A stretch of DNA of 32,000 nucleotides from Parasynechococcus marenigrum WH 8102. Its GTDB lineage: Bacteria > Cyanobacteriota > Cyanobacteriia > PCC-6307 > Cyanobiaceae. Position 1 is the first letter of the stretch, and each line of letters starts with the position of its first letter. The notes under the pieces are model-generated. The model was not told the origin of the DNA and did not search any database. It saw nothing but the letters and a program-made list of their open reading frames with translations. The stretch is taken from the NCBI RefSeq assembly GCF_000195975.1, contig NC_005070.1:450001-482000 (forward strand), in the 5' to 3' direction. Shown piece after piece: positions 6,371 through 27,682 of this stretch. A program made the position numbers and the translations under genes.

Positions 6371-6474
6371 CTAAATGTTTTTCTATCCACTCTTGTCTTA
6401 TGCGATCAAATCGCGTTTCTAATTCTGTTAATCATATACATCACCAATTTATACCCAAATTATTTTAATTATTT

Positions 6475-6978
6475 TTGGTTTCCCCTAATCCTTTCATGAT
6501 TGATTTCTTTGGGGTTTTTCTTTTTCTATTTAGAGAGCTATACAATGTGTTTAAGCTGATGATACGAAGATATCGTATATTCAGATATGCACATCATACG
6601 AATTCATCCCTTTCCTTGGATCTTGTTGTAACCGGAGCCTTTTCTGACCTTAAGATCGGACAAGGCTCTAGAATAAACGGTAACTCACAATTTCGAAATA
6701 TGGATGGTTCACAAATTATTATTGGTTCAAACGTGTTCTGTGGAAGTGGTCTCATACTTATTGCGCATACATACCAACGAAATTCAGATTCTTCACGTTC
6801 TGATATTATGATTTCTTCTTCAGTCACTATTTCTGACGATGTTTGGATTGGATCGAGAGTCATTGTCTTGCCAAATGTCCATATTGGAAAGGGCGCGATT
6901 ATTGGTGCTGGTTCAGTAGTTACTAAAGATGTAGAGAGCTTTTCAACTGTTGCTGGTATACCAGCTAAACCACTATGA
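6475..6978 (+). CDS. Hexapeptide-repeat O-acetyltransferase (LacA/WbbJ-like)
   Basis: C-terminal [51 protein letters not shown] is a classic LbH acetyltransferase end. The start is uncertain: the track start is a TTG, and an ATG follows at 6496. Confidence 0.75.
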
Positions 6979-7904
6979 AATCCTCACTCCCTTCTCAAAA
7001 GTTATCAGCAGACTATCCTCTTAGTCTTGTTGGAAGACTCACTTGGTTTTATATTAATCTATTATCTAATATAATTTCTCTTCCACAGTTCATTAATTCT
7101 CCGTGTTATTTATTCAATTTCTCTTTGCCATCTTTACAGTCTTTTCTCTTTAATAGTTTAGATTCAGCAAAAAGTCCTTCTCGTTTCTTGTGCGAGGAGT
7201 ATCTGTTTAGGGAATTTGTTACCCTATTTAGAAATTCCTCCAAATCTAATATTCAAGTTTACGATTTTGGTTGTGGTGGTTCATCCATTCTTGAGATCAT
7301 TGACAAAGCATACACTTATGTTTTTAACACTGACGACAATACAAAAGTGACCTACATTGGTTATGATCCCTATCTTCCCAGTTTAAACTTCAATAAATCT
7401 CCAGGCTGGCTTGTTATTAATCGTTCATCTGATTTCTCGCCTGATTATATGAAGAATGAATCAATCGATATCGACTTGTCTGTTTCTTTTTCAGTCTTAG
7501 AACATGTTTATGATGATATTAAGCAACTTAATCTTATTGCAACTTTTAGCTCATGTCAGCTTCATTTTGTACCCTCGTGGTGTTGCTTGTTTGTCTATTT
7601 ATGGCATGGCTATCGTATTTATAATCCTTTTATTCTAAGACGTTTGTTTTTGAATCTTTCAGAAGGCTTAGAATTAAAAGTATATTCGATTGGATCCTTA
7701 AGCGCATCTTTTACCTATATAGTATTTACTTTAATCCCTCAAGTCTTATTCTTTATTCTCAAAAAAGTCCTCCATATTCATATTTATAAAGATGTTGTTC
7801 GATTAAGGTTTAAATATCTTTACCGTTATTTTCTGTCTAAATCGGTATTGAATGCCATTAATTCCCGGTTTTTTCCTTCATTTCTTCTTCTTAAAATAGC
7901 TTAA
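6975..7904 (+). CDS. Putative SAM-dependent methyltransferase with hydrophobic C-terminal tail
   Basis: [14 protein letters not shown] (motif I-like) and [14 protein letters not shown] overlap with the upstream stop. The family assignment rests on motifs only. Confidence 0.5.
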
Positions 7905-7908
7905 ACGT

Positions 7909-8811
7909 ATGTCATCGTTAAATCACCTTGTTACTGTCATCATAACTACATATAAACGACCTGATTTACTTAGAAGATCTATATCCTCAGTCCTGAATCA
8001 AACCTATTCCAATCTTCAAATAGTAGTTGTCAACGATGATCCCGAATCCAGTTACTCTAATACTGACTTTTCTGTTTGGGACGATAGTAGACTTCAATTC
8101 ATAAATCACTCTGTCAATAAGGGGGTCTCTTTTGCAAGAAACACTGGCCTTAATCATTCAATCGGTGATTTCATTTGTTTTTTAGACGATGATGATATTT
8201 GGCTTGCTGATAAGGTTGAGAAACAGCTTCGCATCTTAGCCAAAACACCCCTTTATATTGGATTTACATATTGTTGGTCGTATGTTCTTGATGCCTCTAA
8301 CAATGTCACATCACATATATCTCCTAATATATCCGGTAACATCTTTGACTTAATGCTTCTCCGTCAATGCATTCCCAATATATCGACGATAATGATTAAG
8401 TCATATGTTCTTAATGAGGTTAGTGGCTTCGAAGTCAGTTTAATGCGTGGTAACGACTCTGATTTTCTTCGCAAGCTATCTTTCTTTTATCATGTAATTC
8501 CAACTCAGGAATTTCTGGTTTATTATAGTGACTCACCCCTTTACCAACGTATAACTAATTTTTCCCGGGGTGGTCTCACGAAATCCCTTGCTAGTCTTGA
8601 GTATCGGAAGGATCGTTTCAAACATGAATTATCATTTCGTCCCTACACAAGAAACTTTTTAGACGTTCAGCTCATGTCCATATACTTTCATAGTAACCAA
8701 TATATTAAGGGCTTCAAGATTTTTACCTTTGCAGTATTATTTTATGCTGGCTTGCAATTGAGATTGTTTTATAGACTTATAATCGGCTGTACCAGTTTTC
8801 CTCATGATTGA
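7909..8811 (+). CDS. Glycosyltransferase family 2
   Basis: VTVIITTYKRPDLLRRSISSVLNQTY...IVVVNDDP...FLDDDDIW (GT-A fold, DxD). Confidence 0.85.
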   Translation: MSSLNHLVTVIITTYKRPDLLRRSISSVLNQTYSNLQIVVVNDDPESSYSNTDFSVWDDSRLQFINHSVNKGVSFARNTGLNHSIGDFICFLDDDDIWLADKVEKQLRILAKTPLYIGFTYCWSYVLDASNNVTSHISPNISGNIFDLMLLRQCIPNISTIMIKSYVLNEVSGFEVSLMRGNDSDFLRKLSFFYHVIPTQEFLVYYSDSPLYQRITNFSRGGLTKSLASLEYRKDRFKHELSFRPYTRNFLDVQLMSIYFHSNQYIKGFKIFTFAVLFYAGLQLRLFYRLIIGCTSFPHD

Positions 8812-9688
8812 CATCACTGTTTGCATCGTAACTTTTAATCGCTCACATTTGTTAGACGATTGCATCAATTCTGTTTTGAGTAATAAAGTACCCTCTGATT
8901 TTATACACGTAATAGATAACTCAACATCTTCTGTCCACCTTTATGTCAATAGTTTAATAGCAAATTCATACAATGTTCTATATTTCCAATCACCTGTCCC
9001 GGGTAATTTGTCAACCGCTCGAAATCTTAGCATCAGTAATACTGCCTCCACATTTTGGACTTTTGTTGATGATGACGATCGATGGCCATCTAACTATCTT
9101 GAATCAATAGATAAGATTAAGGATATGAACTCTGCTTCAGTTATTCTCACTTATGGTCAGCCTTATCATAACTCTTCTTATCCATTTGATTTGGTCGATA
9201 CTTTACACTCAGCATTTTTGCTGGGACTCACCCCACCGGTCGGCATGCAAGTCTATAATTTAAAAAAGCTTCTGCCTAGTCTCAGATACTCTGAACAAAT
9301 AAAATCTGGAGTTGATCATGACCTTTGGATTTCTCTTTTAGAAGCAACTCCTTCAGTCTATGTCAACCGTTTGCCATTTAATATAATTTCAGTTCCCTCT
9401 CAAAGTCGCATTACACAGTCATATTCGTCTAGAAAAAGGAATATATCAAAATCTCTTAAATTATGGCGGGGGACTCTAAACGATCAGTTTGGCATCCATT
9501 TTTTTAATCATTTTTGTCGTTGTTACCAAACATCTCTTGATGATTTATTATATTCAAAGATCTTGAAAGGCCATTGGCAGCTCCTTTTATACTTTAACCT
9601 GTTTTACTTCTTGATGTTTATTGTGAGGCGTTTGTCCCTTCGCTTAGTGAGTAATTTTTTGATGTTTGTACCTTATAACTCAAAATGA
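8804..9688 (+). CDS. Glycosyltransferase family 2
   Basis: ITVCIVTFNRSHLLDDCINSVL...HVIDNSTS...FVDDDDRW. 8-nt overlap with the upstream gene. Confidence 0.8.
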   Translation: MIDITVCIVTFNRSHLLDDCINSVLSNKVPSDFIHVIDNSTSSVHLYVNSLIANSYNVLYFQSPVPGNLSTARNLSISNTASTFWTFVDDDDRWPSNYLESIDKIKDMNSASVILTYGQPYHNSSYPFDLVDTLHSAFLLGLTPPVGMQVYNLKKLLPSLRYSEQIKSGVDHDLWISLLEATPSVYVNRLPFNIISVPSQSRITQSYSSRKRNISKSLKLWRGTLNDQFGIHFFNHFCRCYQTSLDDLLYSKILKGHWQLLLYFNLFYFLMFIVRRLSLRLVSNFLMFVPYNSK

Positions 9689-10461
9689 CTAGTAATCTTT
9701 CACTAATTGTTCCTTCTGCATTTTGTTCTGGGGATCAAGCAACCTCATTTTTAGTCAATCTTTGTACTTATGATCATTTGCTTGGGGATATTATTGTTGT
9801 AGATTTCAAAAGTTCATCCGAATTTCTTGACATCATATCTAAACACTCCAAGGTAAATATCCTTCAACAATCTGAATCTACAGGAATATATGGAGCTTGG
9901 CAACTAGGTCTCGCTAAGATTACTTCAACTCACGTTTGCTTTGCTGGCATAGATGATTGTTTAAACCCTTTGTTTATTTCTGCGTTTCTTCAGTCGGATG
10001 GTAAAGATACCACTACAACCATCTATTATGGAGATAAAGTTCTTATTAAAGATGACAAGCATATTCTGGTCCGCTCTCCTAAAGTTTCTTCTTTAGCTCA
10101 TTATTCGTTTGTATCATGTGATGTACCGATACCAGGTCTTATTTTCCCTAGGTTTCCACCGAGTTATATTGATTTGAGATTTCAGCTGGCTGCTGACATG
10201 AATCTCTTGCTTTTACTTCTTCGTCAGCGAAATTTTAATTTATCTTATTTACACTTCGTTCAAGTTAATCAGAACTTTGATGGATTGAGTAATTCCTTCA
10301 AGTCGGTTCCAATCTACTTGCGAGAATGGCGTCTCATCGAATACCTTCATTCTGTAAAAATTAACTATTTTACGAAACTGTATTTTTACTTTATGATTTT
10401 ATCCAAACGATTTTATCTTTTTAACTTCTTTAAAAGAATAAAGCGTCATGTCCTCTGTTAA
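9685..10461 (+). CDS. Divergent GT2-like glycosyltransferase
   Basis: LSLIVPS...IIVVDFKSS...GIYGAWQLGLAKITSTHVCFAGIDDCL resembles the GIYDAMNKG...DD signature of small GT2 enzymes. ATGA overlap upstream. Confidence 0.55.
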   Translation: MTSNLSLIVPSAFCSGDQATSFLVNLCTYDHLLGDIIVVDFKSSSEFLDIISKHSKVNILQQSESTGIYGAWQLGLAKITSTHVCFAGIDDCLNPLFISAFLQSDGKDTTTTIYYGDKVLIKDDKHILVRSPKVSSLAHYSFVSCDVPIPGLIFPRFPPSYIDLRFQLAADMNLLLLLLRQRNFNLSYLHFVQVNQNFDGLSNSFKSVPIYLREWRLIEYLHSVKINYFTKLYFYFMILSKRFYLFNFFKRIKRHVLC

Positions 10462-11476
10462 TTCTAAATCACTTTCAGTATATCATCTCATACCAACTAA
10501 CCAGTATGGTGGAGTTGAAGTTGCCGCAAAGCTTTCATTTTCACAACTAAACCGTTCAATTGATTACAATTTAATTTTTTTAAATTACAAACAATCAGAC
10601 TCAATATCATTCTCACATCATCACAGTCTTTGGGATTTTCTTCTTAAAGCGTTAACTGGAAATCGTCTGATTCTCATAGTTTCGTTATGGCCATCTTATT
10701 TTGTATCTCAATTCTTTCTACTATTTCCTAATATTCAAGTCATCCCTTTTTATCACAATTCAAAATTCGCGCATTGGAGAGACAAACTCTTTTCTTTATT
10801 AGTTTTATTTCAATCCAAATATTGTTTTGTAGATTCTAATAAAACAAATTCTTTTATTTCATCTTTTCGAAAAATTAAATCCTTTGTTATTCCTTATGAG
10901 TTTCCTTTCCCCAACACTATTACCCCAAAGCCTTTTTTCTGTCGAAAATTTGATTTGATTTTTATTGGCAGATTTGCTCCCCAAAAAAGGTTCGACTTGG
11001 TTCGCCCTTTCTTAATCTCATTGTCTCGTTGCTTATCGCATAAATTAAGCATTGCAATAGTGTTTGCATCTTCACCATTCGATGAAGTCTCTTCCTTTCG
11101 TGATCAATTGGCATCTCTTGCTAATATTTCGGTATCTTATAGCTTCAACATAACCAATGTCGAGGTTTTACAACTATTGACTAATTCAAAGGTATTTGTA
11201 TTGCTTTCGGATTACGAAGGATATTCAATGACGTTGTCTGAAGCCATAAGAGCTGGTTGTATTTGCATGGTTAGAGATTTATATAATTATAGTACTAATT
11301 TTGCTACCTCTAATCAATCTTTTAACCTCGATTACAGTTCTGGTTCCTTCTCTGATTCTGACTTGATTCCACTCGTGTCTTACCTATCAAATCGATCAAT
11401 ACCTCCAGTTTTCAGAACTCCTTTTGACGATGTGTCATATGTATCGAGCCTTTGTAGTGCATTACTTTCGTTATGA
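10448..11476 (+). CDS. GT-B fold glycosyltransferase (GT4-like)
   Basis: FIGRFAPQKRFDL and the E-x7-E motif EGYSMTLSEAIRAG. 14-nt overlap upstream. Confidence 0.7.
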   Translation: MSSVNSKSLSVYHLIPTNQYGGVEVAAKLSFSQLNRSIDYNLIFLNYKQSDSISFSHHHSLWDFLLKALTGNRLILIVSLWPSYFVSQFFLLFPNIQVIPFYHNSKFAHWRDKLFSLLVLFQSKYCFVDSNKTNSFISSFRKIKSFVIPYEFPFPNTITPKPFFCRKFDLIFIGRFAPQKRFDLVRPFLISLSRCLSHKLSIAIVFASSPFDEVSSFRDQLASLANISVSYSFNITNVEVLQLLTNSKVFVLLSDYEGYSMTLSEAIRAGCICMVRDLYNYSTNFATSNQSFNLDYSSGSFSDSDLIPLVSYLSNRSIPPVFRTPFDDVSYVSSLCSALLSL

Positions 11477-12735
11477 CAAACCTCCTTTATATTCTTCCAC
11501 TTTATGCTATTCCTTTTGGGTATTTATTCATCCCTTTTGGTCACCTTCCTTTGTGGCTTTTGAGCTGTCTTCCTTTGCTTCATAAGCCTTTCGCAAGGAT
11601 CAATAATAAGACTATTTCCTTATTCTTATTACTTATACCATTGTATTCTTTACTTCTTTCATTCTTAGGTTCTAAATATATTCCTCTTGGACATCTCCTC
11701 GCCTTGTTTACACCTTTCTTTTACTTTTCGGTTTATAACTTTCTCATTAGAAAGCTTTCTTTGCATCGTGTTGTAATTATTTTGTCTAACTGTTTTTTGA
11801 TTGCAATCTTGATTCTTTTTATAGATATATTTTTACCTTCTGAGCTACTCAGCTCTCCTTATATAGTCGGGTTCTCTGGATTAGGCTCAAATTCGTTCCC
11901 TCAAAATAGATTTGCTGGCTCCTTTACGGAGCCGGGACACTTTGGTGTTTTACTCAATTTCCTTCAACCTTTCTTTTTTTATAGACGAATTAATCGTCCG
12001 TTCTTTAAATTTTTTGCATTTGGTGTTCCGCTACTTGTACTCAATACAATCGGATCAGCTCCATCCTTTTTGTGCTCCCTACTCTGCAGCTTTATATTTC
12101 TTTTTCCTGAGTTTTCTTCCAAGACTTTAGTAAACTTTTCGACAAGTGCTAGTTCTTTATTTAAACTTAAATTGGCTAAAACATCTGTCTTTTTGTTGAT
12201 ATCATTTCCACTTACTTTGTATTTCCTTGGTTTGTCCTCTAGATATATAGGTTATTTCTCGGCGTTGATATCTGGTACTTCTACTGGCGATATTCTGTCA
12301 GCAGGTAATCGTGCTGCACGTGTTAGATACGTTTTAGGCGAGATTTGGCAGTATCCTTTTGGTTCCGGTATTGCACCAAATTGGAAGGTTAATCAACTGG
12401 GAGGGGAGGTTACACTTGATAGGGCAACTGGTGATGTTTTTGCAGTGAATGTCGACTCTTCGATTTCTAGTCCAATTGATTTGGCTTGGTTTGCTGGCAT
12501 TCCTTTTCTATTAATTTCCATTTTTTTTATTGTAAAATCTATTTTTCATACAATTAAATTTATTTCTCTGTGTCAAGATTCTAGTATCAGATTACTTCTA
12601 TTAACTGCTTTATGGTCATTCGTCTCCATGATTTTTAGATTTAGTTTTGTTAATAACTACTACTTTCCATTTTTGGTGTTTTCTCTGTCCTTTTTAATGG
12701 CTGTTAATTCATCTATTGTAAAAGCCCATGATTGA
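11473..12735 (+). CDS. Wzy-type O-antigen polymerase / O-antigen ligase-family membrane protein
   Basis: 420 aa, about 10 or more hydrophobic segments. NRFAGSFTEPGHFGVLLNF resembles the Wzy_C R..G.f..pN motif, and there is a large loop at 290-330. ATGA overlap upstream. Confidence 0.7.
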   Translation: MTNLLYILPLYAIPFGYLFIPFGHLPLWLLSCLPLLHKPFARINNKTISLFLLLIPLYSLLLSFLGSKYIPLGHLLALFTPFFYFSVYNFLIRKLSLHRVVIILSNCFLIAILILFIDIFLPSELLSSPYIVGFSGLGSNSFPQNRFAGSFTEPGHFGVLLNFLQPFFFYRRINRPFFKFFAFGVPLLVLNTIGSAPSFLCSLLCSFIFLFPEFSSKTLVNFSTSASSLFKLKLAKTSVFLLISFPLTLYFLGLSSRYIGYFSALISGTSTGDILSAGNRAARVRYVLGEIWQYPFGSGIAPNWKVNQLGGEVTLDRATGDVFAVNVDSSISSPIDLAWFAGIPFLLISIFFIVKSIFHTIKFISLCQDSSIRLLLLTALWSFVSMIFRFSFVNNYYFPFLVFSLSFLMAVNSSIVKAHD

Positions 12736-13843
12736 TCTCTATTTTTATATATCAAGGGCTAACATATATGCCGGTGCGCAAAAGTTTTTTGACGATTTTG
12801 TGCACTATGTCGATACTAGTCACAGTTCTCGTTTTTATTGTCGTGGCATTTGGAGTCTTTCTTCTTCAATTAATTTTTCAAGGACTCTTCGCTTTAATAA
12901 ACGTATAACCTTTTTTGATTCACTCTCTATTTTTGTTCGTTCTCTTGTCTTATCAAAAAATTCTGATATTCATTTTTCATCCTCATTCCTTGCTGGCTTT
13001 TTAGTTTCTTTGGTTTCTTTGCTGCTACGAAAGAAGCATGTCTATATAGTTCATGGTGTTTTGTCCTCACGAGTACGTCGAAATAGTATTATTTACTATT
13101 TTTACCTTTTTTTCGATTGGCTTCTTTTTCTTGTTGCAAGAAATCTTGTTTTTATCGCTCCCTGTGATTATTACTACGCTCATAATCTTCCATTTGTTCA
13201 GTCTAAAGTTAAATCTATTCTTATAAACAATTCTATTTCACCATTAGGTTCTGACTTTGTTTATCCTTTCACTTCATTGTCCTCGTACTTAGCTACTCAC
13301 GACATTATTCTTCCCTCATCAGTTACTTGTAACTTGTGCATGACTGCGAGGTTCGAATCTCAGAAAAGTCAACCGGTATTGGTGGAGTCTATTAAGAGTT
13401 TGCCTTTTATCTCGGTATGTTTTTTCGGTGATGGTAAAAGTATTGATGTTGCAAAAAAATTAGCTGGTAGATATCAACTTCTAGACAGAGTTTTTTTCTT
13501 GGGTCATGTTGATTCTCCATATTTGTATTATAATCTTTTTGATTTATTTGTACTTGTTTCACGTTGGGAATCCATGCCATTTTCTTTAATCGAAGCTTTG
13601 AGGTCGGGTCTTCCTTTTGTATCATCTAACGTTGGCTCATGTGATTATCTTTCCGATAGTGGCAAATGTGGTGAAGTTTTAAAATATACAACTCCGGATT
13701 GCCTTGCGGATCTTTTGTTGCACCTTTCCCAGTCAAAGGATAAGCTTTCTTTGATGTCGCGATCTGCTGTAGATTTCTTTTGTCGTGAATTATCTTCATC
13801 CGCTAATTACGATAAAATTATTGCTTTTTTTGACACCCTATAG
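12728..13843 (+). CDS. Glycosyltransferase family 4 (GT-B)
   Basis: ARFESQKSQ...FFGDGKS...LFVLVSRWESMPFSLIEALRSGLPFVSSNVG (E-x7-E). 8-nt overlap upstream. Confidence 0.8.
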   Translation: MIDLYFYISRANIYAGAQKFFDDFVHYVDTSHSSRFYCRGIWSLSSSINFSRTLRFNKRITFFDSLSIFVRSLVLSKNSDIHFSSSFLAGFLVSLVSLLLRKKHVYIVHGVLSSRVRRNSIIYYFYLFFDWLLFLVARNLVFIAPCDYYYAHNLPFVQSKVKSILINNSISPLGSDFVYPFTSLSSYLATHDIILPSSVTCNLCMTARFESQKSQPVLVESIKSLPFISVCFFGDGKSIDVAKKLAGRYQLLDRVFFLGHVDSPYLYYNLFDLFVLVSRWESMPFSLIEALRSGLPFVSSNVGSCDYLSDSGKCGEVLKYTTPDCLADLLLHLSQSKDKLSLMSRSAVDFFCRELSSSANYDKIIAFFDTL

Positions 13844-13849
13844 CTTCCT

Positions 13850-14791
13850 ATGTCTCTTGGGTTTGTCGTTTCTGGTTCTTCCGGTTTTATTGGTTCTGCC
13901 TTTTGCCGCTATATTGAGTCTTTAGGTGACAGAGTTCTCCGCCTTACACGTTCAACGAGGTGTATAGATGGTAACTCCATATCATACTCTGAGTTTCTTG
14001 CTGGAAGTTCAACCAAAGTCAAAAACTTCGAGCCTGATATTTTTGTTAATTGTTCTGCTATTGCACATAAGATTGTTGGTTTGTCTCGCTCTCGTTATAC
14101 AGAGGCCCAGATCTTTGATGTCAATTCAAGGCTTCCAGTGACACTCGCTAAGGTTTGTGAGTCGTATATGTTTAAACGTTACATATTTCTCAGTTCTGTT
14201 GGTGTACATGGCTCGTCGTCAAGTGTTCCACTTACTGAAACTTCTCCTTACTTGCCGGAGAACATATATTCAGCTAGCAAGATCGTCGCAGAATGTTCAC
14301 TTCGTGAGTTTGCTTACACTTCTCCTCTGGATTTAGTTATTCTACGCCCGACACTTGTCTATGGCCCAGGCTGTCCCGGAAATCTTTCATTTTTAAAGCA
14401 GTTAATTGATATTGGTTTTCCTCTTCCTCTTAAAGGTGTTTTCAATATGAGGAGTTTTCTCTATCTTGATAATCTTCTCGACGCTTTACATTTTCTCTCT
14501 TTGCACTCCAATTCATCGGGTCACTCTTTTCTGATTTCTGACAGCGAGATCATTTCTAGCGCTTGCTTGTCTGCGACTATTTGTGAACTTCGTGATTCAA
14601 GATCTATGTTTTTACCCCTTCCTCCACTTCTCGTTAGTAGCTTGTCTCGTTTTCGGCCCTTTTCTCGTTTTTACGAGAAGCTTTCATGTGATCTTTTTGT
14701 TGATACTACTAAATTAGTTGATCAATTTAACTGGGTCCAGCCTTTTTCGCAGTCTGAAGGTCTAGCTCGTTCCTTTTCGATTAATTCTTGA
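13850..14791 (+). CDS. NAD(P)-dependent sugar epimerase/4-keto reductase (extended SDR; WbpK/WbpV-like position)
   Basis: VSGSSGFIGSAF glycine-rich loop and YSASKIVAE (YxxxK). It sits directly before the wbpL-like and wbpM-like genes, as in many O-antigen loci. Confidence 0.75.
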   Translation: MSLGFVVSGSSGFIGSAFCRYIESLGDRVLRLTRSTRCIDGNSISYSEFLAGSSTKVKNFEPDIFVNCSAIAHKIVGLSRSRYTEAQIFDVNSRLPVTLAKVCESYMFKRYIFLSSVGVHGSSSSVPLTETSPYLPENIYSASKIVAECSLREFAYTSPLDLVILRPTLVYGPGCPGNLSFLKQLIDIGFPLPLKGVFNMRSFLYLDNLLDALHFLSLHSNSSGHSFLISDSEIISSACLSATICELRDSRSMFLPLPPLLVSSLSRFRPFSRFYEKLSCDLFVDTTKLVDQFNWVQPFSQSEGLARSFSINS

Positions 14792-14816
14792 ATATTTACC
14801 ATTTTATGGTTATAAT
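14788..14816 (+). promoter_or_regulatory. Sigma70-like promoter candidate TTGAAT-N17-TATAAT upstream of the initiating transferase gene
   Basis: TTGAAT at 14788-14793 and TATAAT at 14811-14816 with exactly 17-nt spacing, about 87 nt upstream of ATG 14903. The AT-rich context makes chance matches likely. Confidence 0.3.
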
Positions 14817-14902
14817 ATATTTGAATAGCGCCTAGCTCTTCTTGCTGACTCCTTTTATTTGCTTCGCCTCTCAGCTTTGTCCTATGCTTCATCGATAACT
14901 CT

Positions 14903-15883
14903 ATGTTTATTAGTTTTTTTTGCTATTTTGTTGCTGGCTTCTTTGTTGCTTATTATTTATTGAGACGCCTAGTTCCGCTTCTTGTTTGTTGTTCTGTAGA
15001 TTTGCCTAATAATCGCAGTAGCCATTCTGTTCCCACGCCCCGTGGTGGCGGTATTTCCTTTGTTTTTGTATCGTCTTTTGCGGCTATTGTGTTTCTTTTA
15101 TTGCCTGGTAGCGAGCTCTCCCAAGTGCAATTTATTGCTGCTCCCTTGGTTTCGTTGCCATTGGCTTGTGTTGGTTTTCTAGATGATCGGCATAACCTTC
15201 CGGCATCCTGGCGTTATGGCGTACAGCTTGCCACCGCATTGATCATTGTCATTTTAAGTCCTCTAGCGACTAATTCTGTTGGGGTGCTTCCTCTCATTTC
15301 GTTGTTCTTTTTCATTGCCATAACTGCAGTAATCAACTTCACCAACTTCATGGATGGCTTGGATGGCCTTGTGGCTGGTTGTATGGTTCTGACCATCACT
15401 TCGGCTGCCATCCAGCTTGCGGCTCCATCGCCCATTTGGTCCTTGGTGGGTGCCTTGCTGGGCTTCCTGCTCTGGAATTGGAGCCCCGCCAAGGTGTTCA
15501 TGGGCGATGTGGGCAGCACCTTTCTGGGTGCCGTTTTTTCTTTGCTTGTGCTTCAGTCATCTACCTGGTCTGAAGCGCTCGCCTTGCTGCTTGTGGCTAC
15601 TCCGCTTATGGGCGATGCCTTCCTTTGCGTACTGCGGCGACTGATGGACGGGCAGCGGGTGTTTCAACCTCACCGTTTGCATCTGTTTCAGCGCTTGCAT
15701 CAGGCAGGCTGGCCACATGCCCGCGTCTCCAGCTTCTACATCGCAGCCACCGCTGTGCTTGCCATTGCTCTCCTGTGCGGGGGCTTACCTTGGGTAATTA
15801 TTTTGGCTGCCCTTGAGTTGTTGTTGGGCATCTGGTTGGATCAACGTGTGGCTGTTCCCTTTGTTGTGGCATCTCGCTCTTGA
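14903..15883 (+). CDS. Polyprenyl-phosphate HexNAc-1-phosphate transferase (WecA/WbpL/MraY family), initiating enzyme
   Basis: NNRSSHSVPTPRGGG, FLDD, NFMDGLDGL and FMGDVGS motifs with multiple TM segments. The 5' ~450 nt are AT-rich and the 3' part is host-like in GC. Confidence 0.85.
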   Translation: MFISFFCYFVAGFFVAYYLLRRLVPLLVCCSVDLPNNRSSHSVPTPRGGGISFVFVSSFAAIVFLLLPGSELSQVQFIAAPLVSLPLACVGFLDDRHNLPASWRYGVQLATALIIVILSPLATNSVGVLPLISLFFFIAITAVINFTNFMDGLDGLVAGCMVLTITSAAIQLAAPSPIWSLVGALLGFLLWNWSPAKVFMGDVGSTFLGAVFSLLVLQSSTWSEALALLLVATPLMGDAFLCVLRRLMDGQRVFQPHRLHLFQRLHQAGWPHARVSSFYIAATAVLAIALLCGGLPWVIILAALELLLGIWLDQRVAVPFVVASRS

Positions 15884-19038: not shown

Positions 19039-19524
19039 TCAAATGCTCTCGGAAGCAATCGACCTGAGCCAGCGTTGAAAGCCTGTGATGTCTGCTTGCA
19101 GCTTTGGCCACGTGTGCTGGAGCTGCTCAATCAGGCGCTGGATCGGCTTTGGTCTCAGCTCATCGGCATAGAGATTGAGCACCAGGTGACGGAATCGCAG
19201 GTGTTGCTGAAGCTCCTGCTGTGTTGACTCGTTAAGCACCGCCTGTCTGATGTCTGTGGCCATCGCCATGTGTTCCAACAGGCGCCGGTGCCAGCCTTCC
19301 CATTGGCTGGGTGTTCCTCCATTCACCACACGGCTAATCAGCAGCAACATCCGCTCCACTCCGATGTAGAAGCTGTGCAGACGCAGGGCGGCGGCTTCCA
19401 CAGCGTCGGCTGAATGGTCCAATCGCTGGCTGAGTTTTCTCAAGCCAGTCACCAACTTGTGCAGGCCAGAGCATTCGCGACTCAGGTCATCGCGCAGTTC
19501 CAGCAGATCGGCGACTTGCATCAC
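19039..19524 (-). CDS. HEPN-like (HepT-like) partner of the upstream nucleotidyltransferase; motif position reads R-x4-N-x-Y
   Basis: 161-aa helical protein whose start overlaps the MNT stop (GTGA, or an ATG 3 nt later). LRFRHLVLNLY sits where HepT-type proteins carry R-x4-H-x-Y. Confidence 0.55.
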   Translation of the reverse strand: MMQVADLLELRDDLSRECSGLHKLVTGLRKLSQRLDHSADAVEAAALRLHSFYIGVERMLLLISRVVNGGTPSQWEGWHRRLLEHMAMATDIRQAVLNESTQQELQQHLRFRHLVLNLYADELRPKPIQRLIEQLQHTWPKLQADITGFQRWLRSIASESI

Positions 19525-19892
19525 GGCATGGGTGGATCGTTTTGATACAGGATTTGGCTCTTACGCAGCAGCCGTTGGACCAGATCATCGCTGAGATCTT
19601 CACGTCGTTTCAGGTCCACTGGTAACGGTCCGGCGTCTTCGGCGAGGGTGATGGCATCCAGTAGCGACCCCGGCGGCAGACCGTCCACTAGCAGGTCGAG
19701 ATCGGAATGGCTGCGGAAGCGATCATCAAGAACGGAACCGAACAGATGCACGGCACGGATCTGCGGCCATCTCTCGCGCATCGCCGCAGCCGCCTTGGCG
19801 CCCTGAGCCAAGCCTTCTTGGCGTCTCTTCTCCAGTTGCTCGCGATCTGCCGCGAAGCGCTGCTTCCAGTACTCCTGGGCGTAAAGGGTCAT
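19521..19892 (-). CDS. Minimal nucleotidyltransferase (MNT/MntA-like), module C
   Basis: VHLFGSVLDDRFRSHSDLDLLV fits the G-S-x10-D-x-D pol-beta-type NTase signature. Confidence 0.8.
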   Translation of the reverse strand: MTLYAQEYWKQRFAADREQLEKRRQEGLAQGAKAAAAMRERWPQIRAVHLFGSVLDDRFRSHSDLDLLVDGLPPGSLLDAITLAEDAGPLPVDLKRREDLSDDLVQRLLRKSQILYQNDPPMP

Positions 19893-19905
19893 GGGCTCAC
19901 TCTGA

Positions 19906-20307
19906 TCAGCTGGCCCTGTCTTGATTCAGAGCCTTGAGCATGGTCAACACCTCACCGGCCGTGGTCAGGGCCTGATCAGCTTCTTCTGGATCAAAGAGCT
20001 CCGATGGTGGTGTGGCATCCATCGGGTAACGGGATTGAATCGCCATGCGGCTGAGGCTGCGTAAGGGGAGGGCCTCAAGTGCTCGCGTGTCTAAACCGTT
20101 CTGCTTCAGCCGACCCACTAAGTCGTTCAGCACATGAGTGTGGGGCGGCTCCTCGCCCAGTTCCAGCAGGGCGCTTTTCAACCCCTTTTCTGCAGCTTGC
20201 GAGGCGTAATAACAAGCCTGGGCCAGGAATCCGTTGTCTCGCGCCAGTTGCGCCAACGCCAGGTCGTTCTCGGCCTGGCGTAGCCAAGCGTTGGGGCGGG
20301 CATTCAT
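19906..20307 (-). CDS. HEPN domain protein, module B
   Basis: WLRQAENDLALAQ...YYASQAAEKGLKSALL...HTHVLNDL...AIQSRYP is the classic HEPN-domain layout. ATGA overlap with MNT-B. Confidence 0.8.
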   Translation of the reverse strand: MNARPNAWLRQAENDLALAQLARDNGFLAQACYYASQAAEKGLKSALLELGEEPPHTHVLNDLVGRLKQNGLDTRALEALPLRSLSRMAIQSRYPMDATPPSELFDPEEADQALTTAGEVLTMLKALNQDRAS

Positions 20308-20654
20308 GACCCGGCCTCAATCAGAGGCTGGGCTTCCCGAGCGACATGGCGCCAGATCACCGAGGGATGGTTCGGCAAGTTGTGCCATGCCTCCTGATCG
20401 AGGCCGATCACGTCCTGGGCGAGTCCACCATCGAGCAGTTGATCAGCCCATCGATCAGCTTCCCCTTTGGAGTCGGCAACCACCAGCAGATCGGTGTCCG
20501 AGAGGCCGTCCCAATCACCACGGGCCCGTGAACCGAACAGGTAGATCTGTTGCGGTGGTTTGGCTTCCCTCTCCACGATGGCCTGGATCTGTTGCTTCAG
20601 TTCCGTGAGCCACTGGGCATGACGGCGCTGACGCAGGTCTTGAAAGCTCGTCAT
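20304..20654 (-). CDS. Minimal nucleotidyltransferase (MNT), module B
   Basis: IYLFGSRARGDWDGLSDTDLLVV (G-S-x10-D-x-D). Its ATG overlaps the stop of the HEPN gene of module A (ATGA at 20651-20654). Confidence 0.85.
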   Translation of the reverse strand: MTSFQDLRQRRHAQWLTELKQQIQAIVEREAKPPQQIYLFGSRARGDWDGLSDTDLLVVADSKGEADRWADQLLDGGLAQDVIGLDQEAWHNLPNHPSVIWRHVAREAQPLIEAGS

Positions 20655-21034
20655 GGGCTTGTGTTGGCTCCTGCTTCGATGGCTTGGCGGAGCTGGTCCG
20701 CCAACAGCTGGATCTCCTCCACAATTCTGGCCCGACTGGCGGGCAGTTTGAAGTCGCCGTCCTGGTAGCGCGCTTCCACCGCAAACGGTTGCAGGCCCAG
20801 CAGCAGCTCTGTGAGTTCGAGGTTGGCCTCACTGGAAAGTAGGTCGAGCTCATGGCTGCGGGGAGGCTCGCCGTCCCCAAGGACGATCCAACACTTCAAC
20901 AGCTTTTCGACGGCCTGTTGGGCCGTGAAGCCCCAGTCTTCGGCTGGGAACTGCTCGTCCAGGCCGAAGTTCAGGCTGCGCAGGTGACGCTCCACAATCC
21001 GCAGCAGCAGCTGGGCGTCCTCAGAGGGAGGCAT
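20651..21034 (-). CDS. HEPN domain protein, module A
   Basis: AQQAVEKLLKCWIVL...PPRSHELDLL...FAVEARY. 14-nt overlap with MNT-A. Confidence 0.75.
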   Translation of the reverse strand: MPPSEDAQLLLRIVERHLRSLNFGLDEQFPAEDWGFTAQQAVEKLLKCWIVLGDGEPPRSHELDLLSSEANLELTELLLGLQPFAVEARYQDGDFKLPASRARIVEEIQLLADQLRQAIEAGANTSP

Positions 21035-21467
21035 ACAGCACCACCCCGTGGCGGGCCACGTCCTTCATCACATGCCAACGCGAGCTGGCCAATCTTGCGG
21101 CGTCAGCTTGGCCTTGCAACACCAGATCGACGCCGCAGCCCACCGGGCCGAGGGCTTTTCGATAGGTGCGCCAGCGCTCGGTGCGTTGCTGGCTGGTGAG
21201 CTCAGGCTCTCGGCAGATCACAGCCAGATCAAGATCGGAATCAGCCCGCGCCGTGCCCTGGGGCCTTGAGCCGAACAGGATCACGGCCCCCACACCCTCA
21301 CAGGCCATGAGCCGTTGAAGCCCTTGCTTCAGCAGCGCTATGTCAATGCCGTCTCCGAGCTGTTTGGGCAAGGCCAAAGGCCTGGACGTGGTCCAGGGCA
21401 GAGCAACGGTGGAGAAGGAGTGAGCCACATCATGATTGTGATGCAGGGCAGCAGCTGTTGCTGGCAT
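21021..21467 (-). CDS. Minimal nucleotidyltransferase (MNT), module A; N-terminal extent uncertain
   Basis: VILFGSRPQGTARADSDLDLAVI (G-S-x10-D-x-D). The first ~45 residues of the 148-aa ORF do not look like part of the NTase fold. Confidence 0.75.
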   Translation of the reverse strand: MPATAAALHHNHDVAHSFSTVALPWTTSRPLALPKQLGDGIDIALLKQGLQRLMACEGVGAVILFGSRPQGTARADSDLDLAVICREPELTSQQRTERWRTYRKALGPVGCGVDLVLQGQADAARLASSRWHVMKDVARHGVVLYASL

Positions 21468-21847: not shown

Positions 21848-23802
<1,955 letters not shown>

Positions 23803-23928
23803 CGCCTGATCCAGCAGCGCTTCGCTGGTCTGGGCCAGATCCGAGAGCAGCAGCAGGGCGTCCAGTGTTGGCCTTACGTCAGGGACGTCAGCCTATCCAG
23901 CCAGCAACAGCGCCGATAGCCTCGAACC

Positions 23929-24355
23929 ATGACGGCAGATGTGCGCTGGCAACAACGGTTCTCGAATTACTGCTCAGCCCTTGAGCAGTTGGAGACCTTT
24001 TTCGAGCCTCCCGCACTCAACGAGCGTGAGCAGCAGGGTTTGATCAAAGCCTTCGAATACACCTTTGAATTGAGTTGGAACACCCTTCGCGATCTGCTGC
24101 GCAGCCAGGGCAATGCCAATCTGCTGGGCTCCAGTGACACCCTGCGGGAAGCCTTTCAGCTGGGGCTGATCAGCGATGGCGAGACCTGGATGTTGATGAT
24201 TCAAGACCGCAACCTCACCAGTCACCAGTCACACTTACAACCGCGCCACCGCTGAGGCCATCGCCGCCAACATTACCAACCGCTACCTGGCCTGCTTCCA
24301 ACAGTTGCGGTTGCGATTACGCCAGCGCCTGCAGCAGGAACAGGGCGAGGCATGA
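23929..24355 (+). pseudogene. HI0074-type HEPN protein (nucleotidyltransferase substrate-binding protein / HepT-like), frameshifted by a 7-bp tandem duplication
   Basis: RWQQRFSNY...AFEYTFELSWNTLRDLL...DRNLTSH, after which the frame breaks (QSHLQPRHR*, stop at 24253-24255). Removing one TCACCAG copy gives ...RNLTSHTYNRATAEAIAANITNRYLACFQQL...GEA*. The TGA at 24353-24355 then overlaps the MNT ATG (ATGA). Confidence 0.8.
24215..24228 (+). repeat. Perfect 7-bp tandem duplication (TCACCAG)x2 followed by a partial TCAC
   Basis: Read directly: aacc TCACCAG TCACCAG TCAC ac. TCAC microhomology flanks the unit. Confidence 0.95.
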
Positions 24356-24654
24356 CGATGGTTTTGGAGATTCCCGGTGTCCCAGAGCCCTCCTGCCAGC
24401 GCTTGGCCGAAGTTCTCCTTCAGCAGCCGGGGCTGGAGCAGGTGTGGCTGTTCGGCTCAAGGGCCATGGGGTGCCATCGCCCGGGATCAGACCTTGATCT
24501 CTGTCTGATCGGTGATGCCATCACCCATCAGGACCGCTTGCGGCTGATGCACGCCATTGATGAGCTGCTGTTGCCCTGGTCGGTGGACCTGGCCTTGTGG
24601 CACGAGCTTCCTGAGGATCTGCGTGGGCATCAGCCGCGATCAGCTTCGGCCTGA
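24352..24654 (+). CDS. Minimal nucleotidyltransferase (HI0073-like MNT), module D
   Basis: VWLFGSRAMGCHRPGSDLDLCLI (G-S-x10-D-x-D) and LLPWSVDL. The 3' end overlaps the ftsW 3' end by 15 nt (convergent). Confidence 0.8.
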   Translation: MTMVLEIPGVPEPSCQRLAEVLLQQPGLEQVWLFGSRAMGCHRPGSDLDLCLIGDAITHQDRLRLMHAIDELLLPWSVDLALWHELPEDLRGHQPRSASA

Positions 24655-25887
24655 CGGCCGGATCTTCCGCTCCCGCCCGCCGATCAGGCCGGTGGATTCC
24701 AGGGAGCAACGCACCAGCAGCCCCAGGATCACCAGGCTGGACATCAGCGAATTGCCGCCGTAACTCACCAATGGCAGCGGCAGCCCGGTGGTGGGCATGG
24801 CGCCGGAGGCCACAGCGATGTTGAGGATCGACTGGCCCACCAGGATCGTGCAGCAGCCGATCGCCACCAGCCGGGTCTGGTTGCAACGGCAGCGCAGGGC
24901 CACCCGCAGCCCCACCCAGGCCACCAGCATCAGAAACAGCAGCAGCACCACTGAGCCCACAAAGCCGAATTCCTCGGCGAACACCGCATAGATGAAATCG
25001 GTGCTCTGGATTGGCAAGTACTGCAGCTTCTGGGTGGAGAGGCCGTAGCCCTGGCCGGTGAGGCCGCCTGAGCCGATGGCCAGCAGGCTTTGCACCAGCT
25101 GATAGCCGTCCCCCATCGGATCAGCCCAGGGGTCGAGGAACGACACCACCCGCAGCCGTTGGTATTCATTGATCAGGATGCTGGCGGTGCCCAGGGCGCC
25201 ACCGGCGATGGCGGTGCCCAGCAGGCTGCGCCAGCGGATGCCCGAGGCCAACGCCACCATCCACAAGGTCAGGCCGATCAACGCAGCAGTGGACAGGTTG
25301 GGTTGCTTGAGGATCAGCAGCAGCAACCCCCCGAAGCTGCCCAGCCACAGCAGCTTTTGATCCAGCCGCATCCGGCACCAGGGGGCAAACAGGTTGGCCG
25401 CCTGCAGCACCACAAACGGCTTAACCAGCTCCGACGGCTGGATCTGCAGCGGCCCCAGCACCAGCCAGCGGCTGGCGCCGTTCACTGTGGTGCCAATCAT
25501 CAGGGTGGCGGCGATCAGCAGGCAGCCCACCCATAGGGCCGGCCCAGCCCAGCGCAGGCAGTTCCGCAGATTGGCGGTCAACGCCAGACTGAACAGACTC
25601 CAGCTAGCGATCAGCCAGATCGCCTGGCGCTTCACGTAGAAGGCGCCATCGCCGATCTCCCGGGCGGCCACCCACCAACTGGCGGAGACCAGCACCAGCA
25701 ATCCCGCCAGGCTCCAGAAGGCGGCCAGGCCCACCAGCAACCGTGCTTCCGCTGGCCAGAGGGCCCAGGGCAGGGGCATCAACCGCTGGATCAACCCCGG
25801 ACGCTGACGCACCCGTTCACGGGCGATGCGGCGTCGTGGGGCTGTGGCGGTGACCAACGGGGACTGTTCCAATATTCGATGCCCCAT
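24640..25887 (-). CDS. ftsW: FtsW/RodA/SpoVE-family (SEDS) cell-division/peptidoglycan polymerase protein
   Basis: 415 aa, about 10 TM segments. QPSELVKP, TDFIYAVFAEEFGFVG and LPLPLVSYGGNS are signature segments. The start codon is not verified. Confidence 0.88.
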   Translation of the reverse strand: MGHRILEQSPLVTATAPRRRIARERVRQRPGLIQRLMPLPWALWPAEARLLVGLAAFWSLAGLLVLVSASWWVAAREIGDGAFYVKRQAIWLIASWSLFSLALTANLRNCLRWAGPALWVGCLLIAATLMIGTTVNGASRWLVLGPLQIQPSELVKPFVVLQAANLFAPWCRMRLDQKLLWLGSFGGLLLLILKQPNLSTAALIGLTLWMVALASGIRWRSLLGTAIAGGALGTASILINEYQRLRVVSFLDPWADPMGDGYQLVQSLLAIGSGGLTGQGYGLSTQKLQYLPIQSTDFIYAVFAEEFGFVGSVVLLLFLMLVAWVGLRVALRCRCNQTRLVAIGCCTILVGQSILNIAVASGAMPTTGLPLPLVSYGGNSLMSSLVILGLLVRCSLESTGLIGGRERKIRPSGRS

Positions 25888-27244: not shown

Positions 27245-27682
27245 TCAGTCGTAAAAACGTTTGCCGTCGACCCGTTTGATTGCATTGCGGCGGGCGTTGC
27301 GGCGGGTGTACTCGCTCACCGTCGGATTGGCGGCGGTGGGATCCACGTGGGCCACCTGCTCCCAGAGGTCCCGCGATGCCCAGCGCACCGTGTGAGCAAT
27401 CTTGTCGTGCTTGATCACGTGGCACCAACGGCTGCTGCCGCATTTGGGGCAGAACAGCTCCTCCAGCCATTCATTGCTCAGCACCAGCACCGGGTAGGCG
27501 TTGATGATCAGCTGCGCTTTCTTGGCGTTCATGCCCCGCTGCTGCAGCTGCTCTGGCTGCAACAGATGCAGGTAGTACTTCTTGCCGTTGCCCTGGATCA
27601 GCTGTTCGGGATGGGCCGGGCAGAACAGCTCCCGTTTCTTGGGGCGACGGTTGCGACGGATCGGTGCTTCCGTGATGGTCAT
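27245..27682 (-). CDS. Hypothetical protein with CxxH...CxxC zinc-ribbon-like ligands and basic termini
   Basis: I chose the ATG at 27682 (MTITEAPIRRNRRPKKRELFCPAHP...CPKCGSSRW...RRNARRNAIKRVDGKRFYD, 145 aa). The longer 250-aa track ORF would overlap the 5' end of the convergently... divergently oriented 1222-aa gene, and its extension looks like shadow sequence. Confidence 0.6.
   Translation of the reverse strand: MTITEAPIRRNRRPKKRELFCPAHPEQLIQGNGKKYYLHLLQPEQLQQRGMNAKKAQLIINAYPVLVLSNEWLEELFCPKCGSSRWCHVIKHDKIAHTVRWASRDLWEQVAHVDPTAANPTVSEYTRRNARRNAIKRVDGKRFYD

What the first reader, a model, noticed from the sequence alone, without database searches (positions are those of the whole stretch)
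23929..24355. HEPN toxin-type gene knocked out by a 7-bp tandem duplication placed exactly at its RX4HXY motif, with the partner MNT intact
The sequence reads aacc-TCACCAG-TCACCAG-TCAC (24215-24232). With both copies, the protein is ...DRNLTSH-QSHLQPRHR-stop. With one copy it reads ...DRNLTSHTYNRATAEAIAANITNRYLACFQQLRLRLRQRLQQEQGEA-stop. That restores a canonical R-x4-H-x-Y motif and a C-terminal helix, and it gives a TGA that overlaps the ATG of the downstream MNT gene (ATGA at 24352-24355). The restored frame is open for all 41 codons, which is unlikely by chance. The unit is flanked by TCAC microhomology, so it is a replication-slippage product and in principle reversible. Possible readings are a toxin inactivated under selection, a reversible on/off switch, or an assembly/sequencing artefact.
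Basis: seen in the sequence. Interest (0 to 1): 0.7.

Follow-up and report, generated by a model that had tools for sequence, protein, structure and literature searches.

The report
Decayed HEPN-MNT toxin-antitoxin pair in WH8102
The 7-bp duplication is real and does break a toxin-type HEPN gene in Synechococcus WH8102, but the partner antitoxin gene is damaged too, so this is an ordinary strain-specific dead toxin-antitoxin module rather than a switch.

Summary
The window is Synechococcus (Parasynechococcus marenigrum) WH8102. TCACCAG is present twice at 24215-24228. Removing one copy restores a 139-aa PF08780/HI0074-family HEPN protein with RX4HXY and a TGA overlapping the MNT ATG. Every orthologue examined has one copy: strains RS9915 and A18-40, seven marine metagenome contigs and 120 protein cluster representatives. 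The duplication is therefore derived and WH8102-specific. It is not an artefact, because four independent assemblies with WH8102-identical DNA all carry it. No one-copy WH8102-type protein exists among about 15 billion sequences.

The claim that the MNT is intact is wrong. The WH8102 MNT has lost 30 bp (10 codons) between two GGCATC repeats. This removes the end of the last helix and the last beta strand, a segment present in all 120 homologues. It also carries R41C in the catalytic GSX10DXD loop. The HEPN also carries R69S, at the residue that in the Legionella homologue drives tetramer formation and MNT binding.

The closest characterised system is the Legionella pneumophila type VII HEPN-MNT pair. 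Best reading: recent, strain-specific decay of a class I HEPN-MNT module by replication slippage, probably toxin first. Low novelty; mainly an annotation correction.

The parts
23929..24255 (+). Present-day truncated HEPN ORF (108 aa; CAE06988.1 / WP_011127347.1). It keeps helices 1-4 and R94-x4-H99, followed by 9 out-of-frame residues and a TGA.
   Evidence: helix boundaries from the AF2 model of the intact orthologue
24215..24232 (+). 7-bp tandem duplication TCACCAG x2 (24215-24228) followed by TCAC (24229-24232). All orthologues have a single copy.
24229..24355 (+). Out-of-frame remnant of the HEPN 3' end. In the +1 frame it encodes T100-Y101...A139 (the Tyr acceptor and helix 5) and ends in TGA 24353-24355, which overlaps the MNT ATG.
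24133..24135 (+). HEPN codon 69, AGT (Ser). It is Arg in 97.5% of 120 homologues and Ser in none. It is equivalent to R73 of the Legionella HEPN, the key residue for tetramer formation and MNT binding.
   Evidence: PMC11586414
24352..24654 (+). MNT ORF (100 aa; CAE06989.1 / WP_011127348.1). The GSX10DXD motif (G35-S36...D47-x-D49) is present, but the protein lacks the 10 C-terminal core residues.
24472..24474 (+). MNT codon 41, TGC (Cys), inside the G-loop of GSX10DXD. It is Arg in 94% of 120 homologues.
24625..24632 (+). Junction of the 30-bp in-frame deletion in the MNT. A single GGCATC is left at 24626-24631. Orthologues have GGCATC-N24-GGCATC encoding (H)LQRAGRCLW(H).

Best explanation
This is a class I (RX4HXY + GSX10DXD; PF08780/PF01909) HEPN-MNT toxin-antitoxin module of the Legionella pneumophila / HI0073-HI0074 type. 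It sits between ccdA and ftsW in clade-III marine Synechococcus and is decaying in strain WH8102. In intact relatives the 139-aa HEPN is a five-helix bundle with the RX4HXY motif in the loop between helices 4 and 5. The 110-aa MNT is translationally coupled to it through an ATGA overlap. By homology, the MNT would oligo-AMPylate the motif Tyr to silence the toxin. In WH8102, replication slippage between two TCAC tetramers 7 bp apart duplicated TCACCAG. This shifted the frame after H99, so Y101 and all of helix 5 are lost and the ORF stops 97 nt before the MNT start. A second slippage-type event between two GGCATC hexamers removed 30 bp of the MNT, deleting the end of its last helix and its last beta strand. 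Each gene also has one substitution at a near-invariant residue (HEPN R69S, MNT R41C). Shown: both indels are derived, are WH8102-specific, and are stable across independent assemblies. Inferred: both proteins are non-functional. Inferred from toxin-antitoxin logic: the toxin was disabled first, because an antitoxin defect can only fix once the toxin is harmless, and the MNT then drifted. Substitutions on the WH8102 branch are mostly synonymous, so the lesions look recent relative to the roughly 3% lineage divergence.
For: The duplication is present, and one-copy restoration gives a full-length PF08780/TIGR01987 match. The window is WH8102, and both truncated proteins are its deposited proteins. 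RS9915 (L001), A18-40 (L084) and seven marine metagenome contigs share the ccdA-HEPN-MNT-ftsW synteny, with a 139-aa HEPN (134 aa as annotated in RS9915) and, wherever the contig reaches its end, a 110-aa MNT. In the alignment of nine loci the 7-bp insertion and the 30-bp deletion are unique to WH8102. All 120 MNT homologues carry the deleted segment (G 99%, W 98%). HEPN position 69 is R in 97.5% and MNT position 41 is R in 94%. AF2 models place the frameshift in the helix 4-5 loop, ahead of helix 5 (residues 103-138). They place the MNT deletion over the end of helix 88-97 and strand 99-103. The models superpose on Legionella HEPN and MNT crystal structures at TM 0.83-0.91 and rmsd 1.2-1.7 A (sequence E 1e-35 and 3e-17). 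Function of the Legionella pair comes from PMC11586414, and the class definition from PMC7641770. Four independent assemblies are 100% identical across the module, each with two copies and the deletion junction. WH8102-unique SNPs are 9 synonymous / 2 non-synonymous in HEPN and 4 / 2 in MNT (codon assignment by hand). Lineage-specific substitution density is similar to the flanking genes.
Against: No experiment shows that the truncated HEPN or the shortened MNT is inactive. The MNT deletion is in frame and its catalytic GSX10DXD motif is still present, so residual activity is possible. In the Legionella homologue the RNase active site (Q44/E47 in helix 2) lies upstream of the frameshift. The truncated protein therefore retains the equivalent region (K40/E43). 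Its inactivity rests on loss of helix 5 and of the dimer-interface loop residues, not on loss of catalytic residues. The order of events cannot be read from one genome.
Confidence: 0.85

Rival explanations
1. Toxin-only knockout with a functional MNT retained. The antitoxin or nucleotidyltransferase is kept because it still does something useful, while the toxin was removed by selection.
For: The MNT ORF is still open. Its deletion is a multiple of three and GSX10DXD is intact. Substitutions on the WH8102 branch of the MNT are mostly synonymous.
Against: The deleted 10 residues are present in all 120 homologues and form the end of a helix plus one of the four core beta strands. R41C hits a 94%-conserved residue in the catalytic loop. 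The premature HEPN stop removes the ATGA translational coupling.
Confidence: 0.07
2. Reversible on/off contingency switch. The 7-bp unit expands and contracts by slippage, toggling toxin expression in the population.
For: The unit is flanked by TCAC microhomology, and loss of one copy restores the frame exactly. Another short tandem repeat does vary between WH8102 assemblies (12 bp at 27285-27296).
Against: There are only two copies of the unit. All independent WH8102-identical assemblies examined have two copies. The exact restored 139-aa protein is absent from about 15 billion sequences, whereas the 108-aa form is on 110 contigs. The two-copy 21-mer is not found in any HEPN context in JGI metagenomes. 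The microhomology depends on a synonymous AGT Ser codon confined to the marine lineage and is absent from most family members, being present in 12 of 51. The antitoxin carries an irreversible deletion, so a revertant would be counter-selected.
Confidence: 0.04
3. Assembly or sequencing artefact in the reference genome.
For: Short tandem duplications can arise from assembly errors, and the reference is an early Sanger genome.
Against: Four independent assemblies are identical over 5.6-6.3 kb with two copies: Logan SRR10229907, SRR10229882 and ERR5431275, and ENA ERZ23491930. One of them differs from the reference elsewhere by a 12-bp indel, so it is not a copy of the reference.
Confidence: 0.01
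4. The frameshift is bypassed in translation by programmed +1 frameshifting, or the truncated four-helix HEPN has a new function.
For: The truncated ORF retains R-x4-H and the helix-2 region that is catalytic in the Legionella homologue (PMC11586414).
Against: There is no slippery or stall signal. A +1 bypass would insert two residues between H and Y and break RX4HXY (read from the sequence). No homologue among 120 has this architecture. Helix 5 (36 residues) and the dimer-interface loop residues are lost (PMC11586414).
Confidence: 0.02

Closest known systems
Legionella pneumophila HEPN-MNT type VII toxin-antitoxin module (PDB 8XDJ, 8YUF, 8XEH, 8XEO; Jin et al. 2024, PMC11586414)
   Same: Same Pfam pair (PF08780 HEPN + Polbeta/PF01909 MNT). 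The HEPN is 47-50% identical and the MNT 36% identical. Models of the intact orthologues superpose at TM 0.83-0.91. The HEPN is a five-helix bundle with RX4HXY in the helix 4-5 loop. The MNT is short, with no long C-terminal helix, and has GSX10DXD.
   Different: The WH8102 copy is broken: the HEPN is frameshifted after H99 and the MNT lacks its last strand. Legionella Mg-site residue Q44 is K40 here, invariant in the picocyanobacterial clade, while E47 corresponds to a conserved E43. Legionella R73 is Ser in WH8102 only. No biochemistry exists for the cyanobacterial proteins.
Haemophilus influenzae HI0073/HI0074 pair (PDB 1NO5, 1JOG; TIGR01987 family)
   Same: Founding members of the same families. 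The restored HEPN passes the TIGR01987 cut-off (99 bits against 55.8).
   Different: More distant (31-32% identity). From my own knowledge, the gene order in H. influenzae is MNT then HEPN. Here, and in 77 of 80 related loci, the order is HEPN then MNT.
Shewanella oneidensis HepT/MntA (SO_3166/SO_3165) and Aphanizomenon flos-aquae HEPN/MNT
   Same: The same class I logic applies: RX4HXY toxin, GSX10DXD adenylyltransferase antitoxin, and a Tyr that is oligo-AMPylated (PMC7641770).
   Different: Different HEPN family. PF01934/NF047751 score only 18 bits, below their cut-offs, with 8-16% identity in fold matches. Their MNTs have an extra C-terminal helix needed for binding, which this family lacks (PMC11586414).

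Membership tests
Class I HEPN/MNT toxin-antitoxin pair (Yao et al. 2020 definition, PMC7641770) | HEPN partner belongs to PF01934 or PF08780 | tested here: met
   PF08780 at 132 bits for the restored protein and 99 bits for the present ORF, against a cut-off of 31.8. TIGR01987 at 99 and 70 bits, against a cut-off of 55.8.
Class I HEPN/MNT toxin-antitoxin pair (Yao et al. 2020 definition, PMC7641770) | RX4HXY motif in the HEPN protein as encoded today | tested here: not met
   The present ORF reads R94-NLTS-H99-Q-S, so the Tyr is lost to the frameshift. The one-copy reconstruction and 114 of 120 homologues have RX4HXY. The ancestral gene was therefore a member and the present gene is a pseudogene of one.
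Class I HEPN/MNT toxin-antitoxin pair (Yao et al. 2020 definition, PMC7641770) | Neighbouring MNT with a GSX10DXD motif | tested here: met
   G35-S36-RAMGCHRPGS-D47-L-D49 in ORF 24352-24654. However, X5 is the unusual Cys41.
Class I HEPN/MNT toxin-antitoxin pair (Yao et al. 2020 definition, PMC7641770) | HEPN is growth-inhibitory and is neutralised by MNT-dependent AMPylation of the Tyr | not testable with these tools
   Known only for the Legionella homologue at about 50% identity (PMC11586414).
Legionella-type HEPN-MNT (PF08780 branch) | Complete MNT fold: four-stranded sheet plus three helices, with no long helix 4 | tested here: not met
   The intact orthologue model has E30-34, E48-53, E78-82, E99-103 and H12-22, H59-72, H88-97, and matches 8XEO at TM 0.83-0.91. 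The window MNT lacks residues 94-103, that is the last strand and the end of the last helix.
Legionella-type HEPN-MNT (PF08780 branch) | Mg2+-coordinating active-site pair Q44/E47 in helix 2 | tested here: inconclusive
   The equivalent residues are K40 and E43. Both are invariant or nearly invariant in the picocyanobacterial homologues. The Glu is kept and the Gln is replaced by Lys.
HepT toxin family (PF01934 / NF047751) | Score above the curated cut-off | tested here: not met
   PF01934 at 18.4 bits against 23.5, and NF047751 at 18 bits against 60.
Phase-variable contingency locus (simple-sequence-repeat switch) | Repeat-number heterogeneity between or within populations, with both states recoverable | tested here: not met
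   Two units only. All WH8102-identical assemblies have two copies. No exact one-copy WH8102 protein is in the collection. All other lineages have a fixed single copy. Within-culture minority alleles could not be tested.

The most novel reading that the evidence does not exclude
The two lesions may be causally linked rather than sequential neutral decay. A weakened antitoxin (R41C and/or the 10-residue deletion), or a toxin that could no longer be bound (R69S), would have made the module dangerous. The 7-bp duplication would then have been selected as a rescue. The TCACCAGTCAC microhomology on the LTSH codons of marine clade-III alleles would act as a high-frequency escape hot spot, and in principle a reversible one.
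Probability: 0.07. Interest if true: 0.4.

Novelty: new member of a known kind. Interest (0 to 1): 0.2.

Why it matters
The value is mainly practical. WH8102 is the model marine Synechococcus. Its deposited proteins WP_011127347.1 (108 aa) and WP_011127348.1 (100 aa) are named as ordinary family members, although both are damaged copies of genes that are intact in wild relatives. Work on toxin-antitoxin or defence systems in picocyanobacteria should use the A18-40 or RS9915 alleles instead. The locus is also a clean natural example of both partners of a type VII module being disabled by slippage at short direct repeats. It also provides ready-made mutant alleles for testing what helix 5 and the Tyr loop of the HEPN, and the last strand of the MNT, contribute. 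It does not reveal a new kind of system.

Tried and rejected
1. The open restored frame as evidence. Rejected, because 44% of 40-codon windows are open in this GC-rich DNA and the third frame is open too.

2. AT-biased WH8102-specific substitutions as a sign of long relaxed selection. Rejected, because the same GC-to-AT excess occurs in resB, ccdA and other flanking genes and in the other lineages. Substitution density in HEPN and MNT is similar to the flanks.

3. A conserved slippage 'fuse' at the motif. Rejected, because the microhomology needs the AGT Ser codon. It is found in the marine clade-III alleles but in only 12 of 51 family loci, and freshwater relatives use AGC.

4. Metagenome scan for the two-copy 21-mer. 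It gave five hits, none related to HEPN or to the window.

5. Genome-collection scan for orthologous loci. It was useful for gene order but not for close relatives of WH8102.

6. PADLOC. No named defence system for the HEPN, and only weak candidate-family (PDC-S09) hits for the MNT.

7. Promoter and terminator consensus scan of 23700-24750. Nothing found.

8. Literature. No paper was found mentioning the presumed locus tags SYNW0473/0474 (the tag numbers are my guess from accession order and are unverified). The WH8102 toxin-antitoxin papers found concern other genes.

9. Programmed frameshifting. Considered from the sequence only and rejected (see the rival explanations).

Full report
**Observation**

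The sequence at 24215-24232 reads TCACCAG-TCACCAG-TCAC, as reported. The existing ORF 23929-24255 encodes 108 aa ending ...DRNLTSHQSHLQPRHR*. Removing one 7-bp copy gives a 139-aa protein...DRNLTSHTYNRATAEAIAANITNRYLACFQQLRLRLRQRLQQEQGEA*. Its TGA (24353-24355) overlaps the ATG (24352) of the downstream nucleotidyltransferase gene.

Perfect tandem duplications of this type are rarer than chance, with 3 in the window against a mean of 0.37 in composition-preserving shuffles. In the GC-rich half of the window, 44% of all 40-codon windows in any frame lack a stop, and the third frame downstream of the repeat is also open.

What proves that the one-copy frame is the original is homology. The PF08780 (NTase_sub_bind) score rises from 99 bits covering profile positions 1-95 of 126 to 132 bits covering 1-125. 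TIGR01987 (HI0074 family) rises from 70 to 99 bits. Proteins of 139 aa that are 96-97% identical through the C-terminus are abundant in marine metagenomes.

**Source and polarity**

Exact-sequence look-up identifies both ORFs as deposited proteins of Parasynechococcus marenigrum (Synechococcus sp.) WH8102. The HEPN fragment is CAE06988.1/WP_011127347.1, and the MNT is CAE06989.1/WP_011127348.1.

The orthologous locus has the same synteny, ResB, CcdA, HEPN, MNT and convergent FtsW, wherever the contig extends far enough. It is present in strains RS9915 (L001) and A18-40 (L084) and on seven marine metagenome contigs. Each has a 139-aa HEPN (annotated as 134 aa in RS9915) and, where the contig reaches its end, a 110-aa MNT.

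Nine of these loci, including WH8102, were aligned at the DNA level. In that alignment the 7-bp insertion is unique to WH8102. The duplication is therefore derived.

**The partner gene is not intact**

The same alignment shows a second WH8102-unique lesion. The MNT lacks 30 bp. Orthologues read ...CG(C/T)G-GGCATC-TGCAGCGGGCAGGGCGATGCCTCT-GGCATC-AGC..., whereas WH8102 keeps a single GGCATC at 24626-24631. This is a deletion between 6-bp direct repeats.

It removes ten residues, (H)LQRAGRCLW(H). That segment is present in all 120 MNT homologues retrieved, with Gly at 99%, Trp at 98% and Cys at 95%.

An AlphaFold model of an intact 110-aa orthologue has mean pLDDT 85.6. Its elements are H12-22, E30-34, E48-53, H59-72, E78-82, H88-97 and E99-103. 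The deletion of residues 94-103 therefore takes out the end of the last helix and the entire last strand of a four-stranded sheet. The deletion lies 15 nt outside the convergent ftsW stop codon and does not touch that gene.

Each gene also carries one WH8102-unique substitution at a near-invariant position. MNT R41C lies inside the G-loop of GSX10DXD, where Arg occurs in 94% of 120 homologues. HEPN R69S replaces an Arg found in 97.5% of homologues, and Ser occurs in none.

**What the module is**

The closest solved structures are the Legionella pneumophila HEPN toxin (8XDJ/8YUF, E 1e-35, 47-50% identity) and its MNT antitoxin (8XEH_E/8XEO, E 3e-17). HI0074/HI0073 and the Thermus proteins are more distant. 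Models of the intact orthologues superpose on the Legionella structures at TM 0.83-0.91 and rmsd 1.2-1.7 A.

Jin et al. 2024 (PMC11586414) report the following for that pair:
- The HEPN is a five-helix bundle and a Mg2+-dependent RNase that arrests growth.
- The RX4HXY motif lies in the helix 4-5 'Y-loop', which is also part of the dimer interface.
- Y105 is poly-AMPylated by the MNT through GSX10DXD.
- R98A and H103A remain toxic, whereas Q44A and E47A in helix 2 do not.
- R73 is the key residue for tetramer formation and MNT binding.

Mapping by the gap-free alignment in this region gives these equivalences:

| Legionella HEPN | WH8102 HEPN |
|---|---|
| R98 | R94 |
| H103 | H99 |
| Y105 | Y101 |
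| R73 | S69 |
| Q44 | K40 |
| E47 | E43 |

Yao et al. 2020 (PMC7641770) define class I HEPN/MNT pairs as neighbouring RX4HXY and GSX10DXD genes of PF01934/PF01909 or PF08780/PF01909. The ancestral form of this locus fits that definition. It is not a HepT (PF01934) protein, since that model scores 18 bits, below its cut-off.

The AlphaFold model of an intact HEPN orthologue (pLDDT 88.8) has helices 2-25, 32-59, 68-77, 84-97 and 103-138. The frameshift after H99 therefore keeps R-x4-H but deletes the AMP-acceptor Tyr, the loop residues that form the dimer interface, and the whole 36-residue fifth helix.

*Artefact.* Rejected. The exact 108-aa protein is recorded on 110 contigs. Four independent assemblies (Logan SRR10229907, SRR10229882 and ERR5431275, and ENA ERZ23491930) match the window exactly across the module. 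Three are 100% identical over 5.6-6.3 kb, and ERR5431275 differs only by a 12-bp indel outside the module. All four contain two copies of the repeat and the MNT deletion junction. That 12-bp difference shows the ERR5431275 assembly is not a copy of the reference.

*Reversible switch.* Unlikely, for five reasons:
- There are only two repeat units.
- Every WH8102-identical assembly has two copies.
- The exact restored 139-aa protein is absent from a collection of about 15 billion sequences.
- The two-copy 21-mer is not found in any HEPN context in JGI metagenomes.
- A revertant would re-create a toxin next to an antitoxin carrying an irreversible deletion.

The microhomology is also not a conserved property of the family. 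It depends on the synonymous Ser codon AGT. That codon is shared by the marine clade-III alleles, but freshwater relatives have AGC, and the repeat is present in only 12 of 51 family loci. Placement exactly at the motif is therefore a by-product of local codon choice.

*Toxin inactivated.* Supported as a description. Selection is not demonstrated.

**Most likely history**

Both indels have the signature of replication slippage at short direct repeats.

An antitoxin defect can only become fixed if the toxin is already harmless. The parsimonious order is therefore HEPN inactivation first, by the frameshift and possibly preceded by R69S, followed by neutral decay of the MNT (R41C and the 30-bp deletion). 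This order is an inference, not an observation.

WH8102-unique point changes are mostly synonymous, 9 synonymous to 2 non-synonymous in HEPN and 4 to 2 in MNT. Their density matches the flanking genes. The module was thus under purifying selection for most of the WH8102 branch, and the lesions are comparatively recent. A GC-to-AT bias among these changes looked suggestive, but it is shared by the flanking genes and by the other lineages, so it carries no information.

The premature stop also removes the ATGA stop/start overlap conserved in orthologues. By inference this would lower MNT translation.

**Wider context**

In 77 of the 80 related loci recovered from the genome collection, spread over many phyla, the HEPN gene is followed directly by an MNT gene. 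In freshwater picocyanobacteria the flanking genes differ from ccdA and ftsW, so the module is mobile.

WH8102 carries three further MNT-HEPN pairs in tandem just upstream, at 19039-21467 on the minus strand. Two have PF05168 (class II-type) HEPN proteins and one has a HepT-like_2 protein. These are absent from RS9915 and largely absent from A18-40.

**Verdict**

The observation about the HEPN gene is correct. The main correction is that both partners are damaged, so this is a strain-specific decaying class I HEPN-MNT module of the Legionella/HI0074 type in the model strain WH8102. It is a member of a known kind in pseudogene form. Interest is low, and its main uses are correcting annotation and providing natural mutant alleles.

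Noticed in passing
window 19039-21467 (minus strand): Three more MNT/HEPN pairs lie in tandem between queF and resB. They are Polbeta 148 aa + PF05168 HEPN 127 aa, Polbeta 116 aa + PF05168 HEPN 133 aa, and Polbeta 123 aa + HepT-like_2 161 aa. With the studied pair, that makes four such modules within about 5.6 kb. RS9915 has none here and A18-40 has only one Polbeta plus an RHH gene.
   Followed up: partly
window ~4000-15000: A low-GC island (32-39% GC against 58-67% in the rest of the window) is filled with same-strand ORFs. It looks like a horizontally acquired gene cluster. The contents were not examined.
   Followed up: no
HEPN homologues P0008, P0015, P0018, P0036, P0038, P0053: Six of 120 cluster representatives lack the Tyr of RX4HXY. 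Five change only that residue (to S, H, H, D or T) and keep every other motif residue; P0008 also differs at several neighbouring positions (TYNR to IVNS). These could be natural loss of the AMPylation acceptor or metagenome sequencing errors.
   Followed up: partly
window 27285-27296 (ORF 27245-27682, minus strand): A 12-bp near-tandem repeat (CGCCCGCCGCAA) is present in the window but absent from the otherwise identical assembly ERR5431275. It changes a 145-aa ORF to 141 aa. This is a slippage polymorphism between WH8102 sub-lines.
   Followed up: partly
L001 (RS9915) ~6150, HEPN codon 55: The RS9915 HEPN has a 3-bp deletion that removes D55, a residue conserved in at least 90% of homologues. 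This is a possible second, milder lesion of the module in another strain.
   Followed up: no
L018 41-407 (Prochlorococcaceae MAG): The HEPN match is split into two overlapping tblastn segments, residues 1-37 at 41-151 and residues 22-121 at 105-407. The segments start in different reading frames. This may be an independent frameshift or a MAG assembly error.
   Followed up: no
L091, L092, L094, L095 (JGI metagenome contigs): The 21-mer CTCACCAGTCACCAGTCACAC occurs in four unrelated high-GC contigs within a shared conserved context of about 30 nt. A fifth contig (L093) carries it inside a longer tandem array. None has any similarity to the HEPN gene or to the window.
   Followed up: partly
window 24046-24048 (HEPN codon 40): The residue equivalent to the Legionella Mg2+-site Q44 is Lys. 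It is invariant in the 15-sequence picocyanobacterial alignment and at least 90% conserved across 57 homologues. QGLIKA was also part of the peptide pattern that matched more than 560 loci across phyla. The Legionella active-site description may therefore not generalise across PF08780.
   Followed up: partly
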